A stretch of 64,000 nucleotides of DNA from a bacterium (GTDB taxonomy: Bacteria; 4484-113; JAFGCY01): the NCBI GenBank assembly GCA_020849855.1, contig JADZFO010000038.1, positions 108,010 to 172,009 of the forward strand, written 5' to 3'. Numbering within the stretch: position 1 is the first letter of the stretch; the number at the start of each line of letters is the position of its first letter. Under the pieces are notes generated by a model. It ran no database searches. It was given only the letters and a program-made list of their open reading frames with translations, and was not told where the DNA came from. Of this stretch, positions 6,500 through 8,942 are shown one piece after another. The translations under genes and the position numbers were made by a program.

Positions 6500-8314
6500 A
6501 TGCTGCTGCTTCTCCAGACCTACCAGATGAACGACTCGGTCAACATCTGGCAGGCTGTGCGCGCCTGGATCAATGGCCTCGAGCTGGGCGGCTACCGCGT
6601 CAGCGGCCCCTGGTCCAACGGCCTGATGCTGGTCACCGCGCTGCTCTTCATCTTCCTTTTAGAGCTTCTGCTGACGCTTGGCATCCAGGTCTGGGAGCGC
6701 CGCACCCTGGCGCGGATGCAGTCCCGCTGGGGCCCGCAGCTGCACGGCAACATCACGCCCCAGACCTTCCGCAGGGTCCTGACCCCGATCCTGATCCTGC
6801 TGGCCATCCCGGCTGTGCTTTACGGCATTGAGTACTGGAGCTCGCAGGAGCTCGACCAGACACGGACATCCTTCTTGTTCGCTGCGATCGGCGTGCTCGG
6901 TCTGGCAGCAATGATCGTCCGCGGGCTGGCCCTTAATAAGGCTGGTAAGCAGGCGTCCAAGGATGACCCTGTCTTCATTGGCTTCGGCGTTGTGCTTGTC
7001 ACAATGATCGGCGCCTATCTGGTCATGTTTGGCGCTGGTCCTGACAAGCAGCTAAACATCAACCTCGACGCCCTCACCGGGATCAACAGCTTCGTGCCCC
7101 TGCTGGCCTCGCTGTGCAGCATCCTGGCCTTCCTGATCTATATCGTCTATACCCTGGGCTGGGCCTGGCGCCAGGGCCTGATCGACGCGGTCAAGATCTT
7201 CTTCAAGGAAGACGTCGTCCCGCTGAACGCCGACCGCTTCCTCTTCCTCTTCGCGCCGGTGATGGTTTATCTGCCGGCCCTGCTGAGCTGGATCGTGCTG
7301 CCCTTCGGCGTGATGGTCGTCGCCGGGCACTATACATATATGGTTGTGCAGGACCTCAACGTGGGCATCCTGCTGATCATCGCCGACTTCGCCCTCTTCC
7401 TCGTCGCCGTGATCATGTCCGGCTATGGCTCCAACAACAAGTACGCCCTGATTGGAGCGATGCGCGAAGCGGCGATGCTTTTGACCTATGAGATCCCGAT
7501 GCTGATGGCGCTGCTGTGCGTGGCGCTCTTTGCCGGCAGCCTGAACCTGACCACCATCGTGGAGGCGCAGTCCACCACCTGGGCCGTGCTGCCCCTGCTG
7601 CCGGCCTTCATCATTTATCTGGTGGTGGCCCTGGCCGAGTGCAACCGCCCGCCCTTTGACCTGGCCGAGGCCAGCAACGAGCTGATGGGCGGCTACCTGG
7701 TGGAGTACTCCGGCATCCGCTTCGCCCTGTTCTATGTGGCGGAGTATGCCAACGTCTTCACGGTATCCGCGCTGATGGCGGTGTGCTTCTTTGGCGGCTG
7801 GAAGGGGCCGATGTTCCTGGGCCTTGACGGCCTGTGGCTTTCCAGCATCTTCTGGATGCTGCTCAAGACCTACGCCATCATGTTCTTCTTCATCTGGGCC
7901 CGCGCCACCATGCCGCGCATCCGCATCGACCAGATCATGTTCTTTTCCTGGAAGTTCCTGCTGCCGATCAGCGTGCTGGTGCTCTGTGTGACCTCGCTGG
8001 GTGTGGCCTACCGCCACCCCTGGTTCATGGCCAACCGCATCCCTTACATGACGATTGACCCGATCACGCACCAGCCCCTGACCAGCTATCAGACCCTGAC
8101 CACCCTGGAGGCGCTGAAGAGCCTGACCCTTAACGAGAAGGTCTTCTTCTGGTGCTACAACTTCGGCCTGGCGGCGATCGCCATCTTCATCCTGGCCCTG
8201 GCCTGGCGCATCCTGTTTGGCAAGAAGACCCTGCCGCGCGAACGCCGCGCGGTGACCTGGCAGCCGCAGCAGGAAGCCGAGCTGAAGCTGAACAGCGGAG
8301 GTGGCGGGCAGTGA
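6500..8314 (+). CDS. nuoH: NuoH/Nqo8-like membrane subunit with a ~150-aa internal insertion and a ~100-aa C-terminal extension
   Basis: ORF track gives 6359..8314; the first 47 codons lie in the MITE element, so start taken at ATG 6500 (MLLLLQTY..). NuoH motifs: WERRTLARMQSRWGPQ (cf. ERKxLGxMQxRxGPN), IFFKEDVVPLNADRF (cf. KLxxKEDxxPxxADR), ELMGGYLVEYSGIRFALFYVAEYANV (cf. ESELVAGYHIEYSGMKFALFFxAEY). There is extra sequence between the first two motifs and after the last TM. Confidence 0.8.
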   Translation: MLLLLQTYQMNDSVNIWQAVRAWINGLELGGYRVSGPWSNGLMLVTALLFIFLLELLLTLGIQVWERRTLARMQSRWGPQLHGNITPQTFRRVLTPILILLAIPAVLYGIEYWSSQELDQTRTSFLFAAIGVLGLAAMIVRGLALNKAGKQASKDDPVFIGFGVVLVTMIGAYLVMFGAGPDKQLNINLDALTGINSFVPLLASLCSILAFLIYIVYTLGWAWRQGLIDAVKIFFKEDVVPLNADRFLFLFAPVMVYLPALLSWIVLPFGVMVVAGHYTYMVVQDLNVGILLIIADFALFLVAVIMSGYGSNNKYALIGAMREAAMLLTYEIPMLMALLCVALFAGSLNLTTIVEAQSTTWAVLPLLPAFIIYLVVALAECNRPPFDLAEASNELMGGYLVEYSGIRFALFYVAEYANVFTVSALMAVCFFGGWKGPMFLGLDGLWLSSIFWMLLKTYAIMFFFIWARATMPRIRIDQIMFFSWKFLLPISVLVLCVTSLGVAYRHPWFMANRIPYMTIDPITHQPLTSYQTLTTLEALKSLTLNEKVFFWCYNFGLAAIAIFILALAWRILFGKKTLPRERRAVTWQPQQEAELKLNSGGGGQ

Positions 8315-8607
8315 GCACCGGGACCGCGATTGACATCTTCGCCCTGCGCCGCGAGATCCTGGAAATCTGCGCGAAGCACGGCTGCAGCAATGTGCGCGTC
8401 TTTGGCAGCTATGCCCGCGGCGAGGCGACAGGCGACAGCGACCTGGACCTGCTGGTTGAGCTTACGGGTAGTCGTACCCCATGGTGGCCTGGCGGGCTGA
8501 TTGTGGATCTTGAGAAGCTGCTGGGCATTGAGATAGACGTCGTCACTCCCGATGCGCTGCATCGCCGGATAAAGGACGCGGTCCTGGCTGAGGCGGTGCA
8601 ACTGTGA
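8311..8607 (+). CDS. nucleotidyltransferase-fold antitoxin (MNT/MntA type) of a HepT-MntA toxin-antitoxin pair
   Basis: GTG start overlapping the nuoH stop, preceded by SD GGAGGTGG with a 6-nt spacer. Product has VFGSYARGEATGDSDLDLLVEL (GSxxRGxxxxxSDxDL minimal nucleotidyltransferase motif). Confidence 0.7.
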   Translation: MSTGTAIDIFALRREILEICAKHGCSNVRVFGSYARGEATGDSDLDLLVELTGSRTPWWPGGLIVDLEKLLGIEIDVVTPDALHRRIKDAVLAEAVQL

Positions 8608-8942
8608 ACGATCCTCGCCTCTACGTGGATCACATCCTTGACTGCATAAGCAAGATCGAACGCTTTTGCGCCGACGGGGAGGATGCTTTCCTCGCGAGCG
8701 AGCTGATTCAGGACGCCTGTCTGCGTAACCTGCAGATCATTGCGCAGTCGGCTGGCCGCATTCCCGATGATCTGCGCAAAGCTGGAGCAGAAGTCGACTG
8801 GGACCTGATGCGTGGATTCAGGAACCGGGTTGTGCACGACTACTTTGAAGTCTCCATTCCGCAGGTTTGGTACATCATTCAAAATGACCTGCCGGTCTTG
8901 AAGACATTTACTGCAAGATGCCTTGAGGAGCTGGGAGGATGA
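8604..8942 (+). CDS. HepT-like HEPN-domain toxin (DUF86 family)
   Basis: 112 aa; 4-nt overlap (GTGA) with the MNT gene. HEPN Rx4-6H motif present as RNRVVHDY near the C-terminus. Typical size and gene order for HepT/MntA modules. Confidence 0.75.
   Translation: MNDPRLYVDHILDCISKIERFCADGEDAFLASELIQDACLRNLQIIAQSAGRIPDDLRKAGAEVDWDLMRGFRNRVVHDYFEVSIPQVWYIIQNDLPVLKTFTARCLEELGG

What the first reader, a model, noticed from the sequence alone, without database searches (positions are those of the whole stretch)
8311..8942. HepT/MntA (HEPN-nucleotidyltransferase) toxin-antitoxin pair sits inside the operon, overlapping nuoH upstream and the next membrane-protein gene downstream
TA modules are normally autonomous and autoregulated. 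Here the MNT gene starts on the nuoH stop codon (GTGA, with a good SD) and the HepT stop overlaps the downstream start (ATGA). Either the TA pair was inserted and became cotranscribed with a respiratory-type complex, or it regulates or stabilises this locus (addiction of an accessory operon). G+C of the pair looks slightly lower than flanks.
Basis: partly seen in the sequence, partly recalled or inferred. Interest (0 to 1): 0.6.

Follow-up and report, generated by a model that had tools for sequence, protein, structure and literature searches.

The report
Toxin-antitoxin pair in operon's variable slot
A normal-looking HepT/MntA toxin-antitoxin pair really is wedged, start-on-stop, between two genes of a complex-I-like operon, but comparison with relatives shows it is one optional passenger in a small variable slot, so it is a tidy evolutionary curiosity and not a new kind of system.

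Summary
mntA (8311-8607) and hepT (8604-8942) pass their Pfam cut-offs and carry the signature motifs GSX10DXD and RX4HXY. They are chained to nuoH and to the downstream membrane gene Y by GTGA/GTGA/ATGA overlaps. An independent metagenome contig (L025, 98.7% identical, no gaps) shows the same layout.

The pair is not part of the conserved operon. About 15 orthologous operon lineages were checked, and only the window's species and one relative (L023) carry it.

- Nine deep lineages hold one small membrane gene (Z) in this position.
- Among close relatives the slot holds Z1 (L001), an unrelated gene Z2 (L006), nothing (L007), or Z1-Z2-mntA-hepT (L023).
- Slot junctions repeat a ~15-nt unit, GGAGGTGGGCAGTGA (Shine-Dalgarno site, stop, overlapping start). 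Recombination between such repeats would delete genes cleanly.

Slot genes have foreign-looking codon use: GC3 is 0.55-0.76, against 0.88±0.04 for native genes. Both TA genes are nevertheless under purifying selection (dN/dS 0.10-0.15).

Best reading: an ordinary type VII TA cassette, acquired in an ancestor and expressed only from the host operon's transcript. A role in regulating or stabilising the operon has no support.

The operon itself is the odder object. Its NuoB lacks all four N2 cysteines and there is no nuoI.

The parts
6359..8314 (+). nuoH-like gene. This is the longest ORF; the real start is probably near 6500-6527. Its Gly-rich tail ...NSGGGGQ* encodes the Shine-Dalgarno site for the next gene.
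   Evidence: PF00146 at E 8.9e-97. The L001 orthologue is 595 aa.
8297..8314 (+). Junction unit GGAGGTGGCGGGCAGTGA, comprising the Shine-Dalgarno site, the nuoH stop and the overlapping GTG start of mntA. It is a copy of a short repeat found at other junctions of the slot in relatives.
   Evidence: Junction table. The exact 15-mer GGAGGTGGGCAGTGA occurs at nuoH|Z1 (L001), nuoH|Z2 (L006) and Z2|mntA (L023).
8311..8607 (+). mntA, a minimal nucleotidyltransferase antitoxin of 98 aa. Its GSX10DXD motif is G32-S33...D44-L-D46.
   Evidence: PF01909 at E 2.8e-13. Match to 1WOT at E 3.7e-19. dN/dS 0.15 against L023.
8604..8942 (+). hepT, a HEPN/DUF86 RNase toxin of 112 aa. Its RX4HXY motif is R73-NRVV-H78-D-Y80.
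   Evidence: PF01934 at E 1.9e-24. The motif aligns with that of SO_3166, chain 5yep_B. dN/dS 0.10 against L023.
8939..9958 (+). Y, a conserved 339-aa membrane protein of this operon type with no Pfam family. Its ATG overlaps the hepT stop.
   Evidence: 51 homologues, all unannotated. AlphaFold model pLDDT 78, with no PDB fold match.

Best explanation

Mechanism, inferred from the family: MntA uses ATP to oligo-AMPylate the tyrosine of HepT's RX4HXY motif (Y80 here). This keeps the RNase silent. Unmodified HepT cuts RNA and arrests growth.

Expression, inferred from the anatomy: the pair has no promoter or operator of its own and no DNA-binding antitoxin domain. It is transcribed on the operon's polycistronic mRNA and translated by coupling, through the GTGA, GTGA and ATGA overlaps, with the Shine-Dalgarno site for mntA lying in the Gly-rich tail of nuoH.

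History, from comparison: the common ancestor of the window's clade carried nuoH-Z1-Z2-mntA-hepT-Y, as L023 still does downstream of Z1 (its contig begins inside Z1, so its nuoH|Z1 junction is unseen). The junctions nuoH|Z1, Z1|Z2 and Z2|mntA carry near-identical ~15-nt units. Deletions between these direct repeats removed different genes in different lineages while preserving coupling. The window lost Z1 and Z2, L001 lost Z2 and the TA pair, L006 lost Z1 and the TA pair, and L007 has none of the slot genes. The low GC3 of all slot genes suggests that the slot content came from a lower-GC donor.

The pair most likely persists as a selfish or defence-type module. It is unlikely to be a component of the membrane complex.
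For: - Family assignment and motifs: with motif definitions from PMC7641770.
- Overlaps and Shine-Dalgarno site.
- No sigma-70-like promoter in 1900-16500 and no terminator-like site within 7800-9390.
- MntA is 98 aa, and the NTase domain covers residues 14-94.
- Orthologous operons carry other genes in this position. No MNT or HepT homologue was found in the 22 related loci fetched up to that point.
- DNA homology with L001 stops exactly at the nuoH stop and resumes 18 nt into Y.
- L023 carries Z1-Z2-mntA-hepT-Y. L025 confirms the window's layout.
- Junction repeats.
- The tree built on Y places L023 basal to window+(L001,L006).
- GC3 anomaly of all slot genes.
- Purifying selection on both TA genes, with a protein divergence (dN 0.09-0.15) like that of flanking Y (0.09).
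Against: - Nothing here tests toxicity, AMPylation or cotranscription.
- Both NCBIfam equivalog scores fall below their cut-offs (36.3 and 57.7 against 60).
- The tree rests on only 173 codons and is nearly star-like. Gain, or transfer by homologous recombination, cannot be separated cleanly from differential loss.
- The hepT|Y junction matches the repeat unit only loosely, so the deletions that removed the TA pair are less well explained than those that removed Z1 and Z2.
- dS of the TA genes (about 0.9-1.0) is more than twice that of Y (0.38). I attribute this to weaker codon bias, but it could reflect a different history.
- Purifying selection over this time span is also what a domesticated function would produce.
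Confidence: 0.7

Rival explanations
1. The pair is a domesticated regulator of the operon or complex. HepT might process the polycistronic mRNA at the nuoH/Y boundary to set the ratio of upstream to downstream subunits, or shut the operon down under stress. Alternatively, MntA might nucleotidylate a subunit.
For: The pair is strictly coupled to the operon's expression. Both genes have been under purifying selection since the split from L023. In the window the pair is the only slot content retained.
Against: The pair is absent from 13 of about 15 lineages that keep an intact operon. Its codon use looks foreign. Its motifs are those of ordinary toxin and antitoxin proteins. The closest non-slot homologue whose context was read (L024, HepT 55% identical) looks like an ordinary free-standing pair.
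Confidence: 0.1
2. The pair is an addiction module that stabilises the locus by penalising deletions of the accessory operon or of the slot, as proposed for TA cassettes in large integron arrays.
For: The slot is demonstrably prone to deletion. In the window the TA pair survived while its neighbours Z1 and Z2 were lost.
Against: L001 and L006 lost the pair and kept the operon. The window lost the adjacent genes despite carrying the pair. In a type VII system the antitoxin is an enzyme that leaves the toxin covalently blocked, so deleting both genes together need not release active toxin (inference from PMC7641770).
Confidence: 0.1
3. The pair is a decaying remnant that no longer has toxin-antitoxin activity.
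For: Between the window and the near-identical L025, hepT carries 5 nonsynonymous changes and 1 synonymous change, while nuoH carries 0 and 12 (Fisher p = 7e-4). One of the five is R41P in L025, at a residue that is Arg in the other six homologues aligned.
Against: Both reading frames are intact in three contigs. Both catalytic motifs are intact. Long-term dN/dS is 0.10-0.15.
Confidence: 0.07

Closest known systems
HepT/MntA (SO_3166/SO_3165) of Shewanella oneidensis, the Class I HEPN/MNT type VII toxin-antitoxin system (PMC7641770)
   Same: The Pfam pair PF01909 and PF01934 lies on adjacent genes, with the antitoxin gene first and a 4-nt overlap. GSX10DXD is present in MntA and RX4HXY in HepT. 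The RX4HXY segment aligns with chain 5yep_B.
   Different: Overall sequence similarity to SO_3166 is weak (E 2e-3). Both proteins are shorter (98 and 112 aa, against 133-139 aa for the solved HepT chains). The pair is not a free-standing two-gene operon; it is fused by start-stop overlaps into a 12-gene operon. Activity was not tested.
Minimal nucleotidyltransferase of PDB entry 1WOT
   Same: Both are 98 aa and align end to end from residue 11 (E 3.7e-19). The GS...DxD core is shared.
   Different: The function of the 1WOT protein is only 'putative' in the entry. Its genomic context was not examined here.
TA genes embedded inside other functional modules, for example in Tn3-family transposons (PMC7157771, seen as title and abstract only), and TA cassettes in chromosomal integron arrays (own knowledge)
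   Same: A TA pair sits inside a larger genetic unit, in a position where gene content is exchangeable.
   Different: No transposase, resolvase, integrase or attC-like inverted repeat lies at or near the slot. The cassette boundaries are 15-nt direct repeats that double as translational-coupling signals.

Membership tests
[quoted passage not shown] | Adjacent genes, one with an MNT domain (PF01909) and one with a HepT/DUF86 domain (PF01934 or PF08780) | tested here: met
   PF01909 at 50.5 bits (cut-off 21) and PF01934 at 86.1 bits (cut-off 23.5). The genes overlap by 4 nt.
[quoted passage not shown] | GSX10DXD motif in the antitoxin | tested here: met
   The translation reads FGSYARGEATGDSDLDLLV, which is GS, ten residues, then DLD. 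The definition is from PMC7641770. The motif is also present in L023 and L025.
[quoted passage not shown] | RX4HXY motif in the toxin, comprising the catalytic R and H and the acceptor Tyr | tested here: met
   The sequence FRNRVVHDY gives R73, H78 and Y80. F72-R73-N74 and V76-Y80 are invariant in all 7 homologues aligned; residue 75 varies R/V. The segment aligns with the motif of 5yep_B.
[quoted passage not shown] | Score above the NCBIfam equivalog cut-offs (MntA_antitoxin NF047752, HepT_toxin NF047751) | tested here: not met
   36.3 and 57.7 bits against cut-offs of 60. These are naming thresholds built around characterised members, not a definition of the superfamily.
[quoted passage not shown] | HepT is toxic, and MntA neutralises it by AMPylating the Tyr | not testable with these tools
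   This needs expression assays and mass spectrometry.
Autonomous, autoregulated TA operon (the usual TA layout) | Own promoter/operator and a DNA-binding antitoxin or regulator | tested here: not met
   There is no intergenic DNA on either side. No sigma-70-like site was found (a weak test for this phylum). The NTase domain fills residues 14-94 of the 98-aa MntA.
Respiratory complex I (NADH:quinone oxidoreductase, Nuo), the host operon | NuoB carries the four cysteines that bind Fe-S cluster N2 | tested here: not met
   Aligned to Nqo6 (2fug_6) and 8e9g_B, CC becomes DY, C becomes G and C becomes D. The same replacements occur in L001, L003 and L005.
Respiratory complex I (NADH:quinone oxidoreductase, Nuo), the host operon | NuoI (two 4Fe-4S clusters) lies between nuoH and nuoJ, and an electron-input module (NuoEFG or equivalent) is present | tested here: not met
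   The nuoH-to-nuoJ interval holds only the slot genes and Y, none with an Fe-S family hit. nuoE, nuoF, nuoG and nuoN are absent from the operon. The rest of the genome was not searched.
Integron-like gene-cassette array | Integrase gene and attC-type imperfect inverted repeats at cassette boundaries | tested here: not met
   No convincing inverted or long direct repeats flank the pair. No recombinase is present among the operon genes or their neighbours.

The most novel reading that the evidence does not exclude
The nuoH-Y slot may be a recombinase-free cassette site. In this reading the repeated ~15-nt unit (Shine-Dalgarno site, stop, overlapping start) acts as both the expression signal and the recombination substrate, so that genes, including a TA pair, can be swapped in and out of a conserved operon without breaking translational coupling. 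The TA pair may then have been retained in the window's lineage because it acquired a role tied to the operon's expression.
Probability: 0.12. Interest if true: 0.6.

Novelty: new member of a known kind. Interest (0 to 1): 0.38.

Why it matters

The value lies in the context. This is a clean natural example of a toxin-antitoxin module with no regulatory autonomy, slaved to a host operon's transcript. It is preserved under purifying selection in two lineages and cleanly deleted in their sisters. That makes it a good test case for two questions. One is whether such modules need autoregulation. The other is how short junction repeats let operons gain and lose genes without polar damage.

It also points to a conserved and uncharacterised machine that resembles complex I but lacks Fe-S binding. 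That machine deserves attention in its own right.

Tried and rejected
- An exact look-up of the window's HepT in the contig index found nothing. The protein was later found as P0052 through the homology search.
- tblastn of the relatives' slot proteins against the whole window gave no real hit (best E 0.15), so Z is not relocated within these 64 kb.
- No other MNT or HepT copy exists in the window.
- The viral-contig scan for HepT relatives found none, so a phage origin has no support.
- A concatenated Z1+Z2+MNT query sent to the protein search, intended to find more slot variants, was swamped by generic candidates.
- The search for flanking inverted or direct repeats, as a sign of a mobile element around the pair, found only short chance-level matches.
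- The junction motif is not enriched elsewhere in the window (1 match at up to 3 mismatches, 1.0 expected). It is specific to the slot and is not a genome-wide repeat.
- The idea that hepT's C-terminal ...EELGG tail was created by the insertion was rejected. Free-standing homologues end in ...DELGGPPEE and ...RELGNSP.
- A Foldseek search of the Y model against the PDB found nothing significant.
- Literature searches found no report of HEPN/MNT pairs inside respiratory operons and no report of this operon type. The library is incomplete, so this is weak evidence of absence.

Full report
**1. What is there**

The window is high-GC DNA (64.9%) from an uncultured bacterium. Gene Y carries NCBI locus tag IT575_09860 and HepT is MCC7478746.1. 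The genome relatives that carry an organism name (L008-L010) are labelled uncultured Planctomycetales.

The region 2264-15667 is one same-strand gene string. In order it reads nuoA, nuoB, nuoC, nuoD, X (no Pfam family), nuoH, MNT, HepT, Y (no Pfam family), nuoJ, nuoK, nuoL, nuoM, followed by purN.

- The nuoH-like ORF stops with TGA at 8312-8314, and a GTG at 8311 opens a 98-aa ORF.
- That ORF's TGA at 8605-8607 overlaps the GTG at 8604 that opens a 112-aa ORF.
- The second ORF's TGA at 8940-8942 overlaps the ATG of Y at 8939.
- GGAGG lies 9 nt upstream of the first GTG, inside the Gly-rich tail of nuoH (...NSGGGGQ*).

Family assignment is solid.
- Pfam puts the two ORFs well above cut-off in NTP_transf_2 (E 2.8e-13) and HepT-like/DUF86 (E 1.9e-24).
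- The best NCBIfam matches are MntA_antitoxin and HepT_toxin, although both score below the equivalog cut-offs.
- The MNT aligns end to end with the 98-aa minimal nucleotidyltransferase of PDB entry 1WOT (E 3.7e-19).
- The catalytic segment of HepT aligns with Shewanella SO_3166.
- Yao et al. use two motifs to define Class I HEPN/MNT pairs (PMC7641770). Both are present: GS-X10-DLD in MNT and R73-X4-H78-D-Y80 in HepT.

A contig from an unrelated sequencing run (L025) matches window 7465-9475 at 98.7% identity without a gap. The layout is therefore real.

**2. Comparative evidence**

Gene Y is specific to this operon type, and 51 homologues were found. I read its neighbourhood in 22 loci plus one contig for which only gene calls were available.

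- In nine distinct deep lineages (Y 45-55% identical), nuoH is followed by one small membrane gene, Z (145-183 aa), and then by Y. Z forms one family and has native codon use (GC3 0.81-0.90).
- None of the 22 loci encodes an MNT or HepT relative.
- Z is absent from the whole window.
- Against the closest assembled genome (L001, Y 82% identical), DNA homology runs to the last base of the nuoH stop. It vanishes across the slot and resumes 18 nt into Y.

The closest HepT homologue outside the window's species (83% identity) lies in the same slot on contig L023. There the order is Z1 (L001 type), Z2 (L006 type), mntA, hepT, Y.

Slot content among close relatives is as follows.

| Lineage | Slot content between nuoH and Y |
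|---|---|
| L023 | Z1-Z2-mntA-hepT (contig begins inside Z1) |
| window and L025 | mntA-hepT |
| L001 | Z1 |
| L006 | Z2 |
| L007 | empty; the nuoH stop overlaps the Y start |

Z1 is probably a diverged Z (hhalign probability 81%, E 1e-5), and Z2 is unrelated to either.

**3. The junctions**

Every slot boundary is a start-stop overlap preceded by a Shine-Dalgarno site encoded in a Gly-rich C-terminus.

- The exact 15-mer GGAGGTGGGCAGTGA sits at nuoH|Z1 in L001, at nuoH|Z2 in L006 and at Z2|mntA in L023.
- Z1|Z2 in L023 differs from it by one base.
- The window, L025 and L007 carry the same unit with a 3-nt insertion (GGAGGTGGCGGGCAGTGA).
- The sequence downstream of each junction matches what deletion between repeats would leave. 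L006's nuoH|Z2 junction equals L023's Z1|Z2 junction on the 3' side. The window's nuoH|mntA junction equals L023's Z2|mntA junction on the 3' side.

The step from this pattern to 'deletions arose by recombination or slippage between the units' is an inference. The hepT|Y junction (GAGGAGCTGGGAGGATGA) resembles the unit only loosely. Its ELGG tail is native to the HepT family.

**4. History**

A neighbour-joining tree on the first 173 codons of Y puts L007 outside and L023 basal, with the window next to L001+L006. The four ingroup sequences are nearly equidistant (85-89% nt identity), so this tree is weak.

Taken at face value, the ancestor carried all four slot genes, and four deletions explain the present states.

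Protein divergence of the TA genes between the window and L023 (dN 0.15 and 0.09) matches that of flanking Y (0.09). This fits co-inheritance.

Both TA genes are under purifying selection, with dN/dS of 0.15 for mntA and 0.10 for hepT.

All slot genes share low GC3 and high dS.

| Genes | GC3 | dS between close relatives |
|---|---|---|
| Slot genes (Z1, Z2, mntA, hepT) | 0.55-0.76 | ≥0.9 |
| Core operon genes | 0.85-0.95 | 0.33-0.44 |

One possible explanation is import of the slot content from a lower-GC donor, but this was not tested.

**5. How it most likely works**

- Shown: the domain families, the intact motifs, the overlaps, and the absence of any intergenic space or DNA-binding domain.
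- Inferred from the family: MntA AMPylates Y80 of HepT, and free HepT is a growth-arresting RNase.
- Inferred from the anatomy: expression depends entirely on the operon's promoter and on translational coupling.

No sigma-70-like promoter was found anywhere in 1900-16500, and no terminator-like site lies between 7800 and 9390. The scan is of limited value for this phylum.

I see no evidence that the pair serves the membrane complex. Most operons of this type lack it.

**6. Rivals**

Three alternatives are scored in the report sections: domestication as a regulator, locus stabilisation, and decay.

The decay idea gains a little from a short-term excess of amino-acid changes in hepT. Between the window and L025, hepT shows 5 nonsynonymous and 1 synonymous change, against 0 and 12 in nuoH (p = 7e-4). 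One of these is R41P in L025, at a residue that is Arg in the other six aligned homologues. The long-term constraint argues against decay.

**7. Verdict**

The 'inserted and cotranscribed' reading is supported and refined. The 'regulates or stabilises' reading is unsupported.

This is a new member of a known TA family in an unusual and well-resolved evolutionary setting, of moderate interest. The host operon is the more unusual object (see the items noticed in passing).

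Noticed in passing
window 2264-15667 (nuoA 2264-2662, nuoB 2883-3428, nuoC ~3430-4377, nuoD 4374-5606, X 5803-6339, nuoH to 8314, Y 8939-9958, nuoJ 9955-10860, nuoK 10974-11483, nuoL 11477-13711, nuoM 13757-15667): The host operon is not a normal complex I. NuoB has lost all four cysteines that bind Fe-S cluster N2 (CC to DY, C to G, C to D when aligned to Nqo6). There is no nuoI, nuoE, nuoF, nuoG or nuoN. Conserved genes without a family (X, Z, Y) sit among the nuo genes. 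The same features are conserved in distant relatives (L001, L003, L005). The AlphaFold model of Y has no PDB fold match. This looks like an uncharacterised membrane machine related to complex I, apparently without the Fe-S chain.
   Followed up: partly
window 3612-3778 (inside nuoC), 5294-5400 (inside nuoD), and one unit near 24133-24192 (- strand): A 30-nt unit containing a palindrome (GGCGGGTCAAGACCCGCC) is arrayed in tandem and sits in frame inside two conserved genes. It adds runs of ...GKAGQDPPLQNQAGQDPPLQ... preceded by GASLDSPS. Copies occur at the same places in L001. This is reminiscent of palindromic elements that insert into coding sequence.
   Followed up: partly
window 8275-8314 compared with L007 84-123: The last 40 nt of nuoH are identical in the window and L007, although the rest of the alignable sequence is only about 79% identical. 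L001 and L006 differ in this stretch. This could reflect gene conversion or recombination at the slot boundary, or unusually strong constraint. It remains unexplained.
   Followed up: partly
L025 1140-1478 compared with window 8604-8942: Within what is essentially one species (98.7% nt identity), hepT carries 5 amino-acid changes and 1 silent change, while 283 codons of nuoH carry 12 silent changes and no amino-acid change. L025 has R41P at a residue that is Arg in the other six homologues aligned, which may weaken the toxin.
   Followed up: partly
window 2667-2714 and 6343-6390; 4224-4264 and 47456-47496: Short simple-sequence repeats occur in the spacers after nuoA and before nuoH (GATTGCTGATTGCGGATTGC...). 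A second type (GAGTCCTGAGTCCCGAGTCC...) occurs near the nuoC 3' end and again 43 kb away.
   Followed up: no
window 48837-52877 (ORFs 50309-50956 and 51104-51778 on the - strand): This is a region of lower GC3 with two tandem paralogous ORFs whose matching segments lie 795 nt apart. They and their neighbours have no Pfam family.
   Followed up: no
L014 3014-4123: A homologue of Y lies outside any nuo context, directly after a gene I read from its translation alone as 4-hydroxyphenylpyruvate-dioxygenase-like (no profile search was run). Y-like proteins are therefore not always tied to this operon.
   Followed up: no
window 36276-36413: An 18-nt periodic repeat (TGCGCATGCTCTTCTTCC-like, 6 or more units) lies inside the ORF 36278-38047 (- strand).
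   Followed up: no
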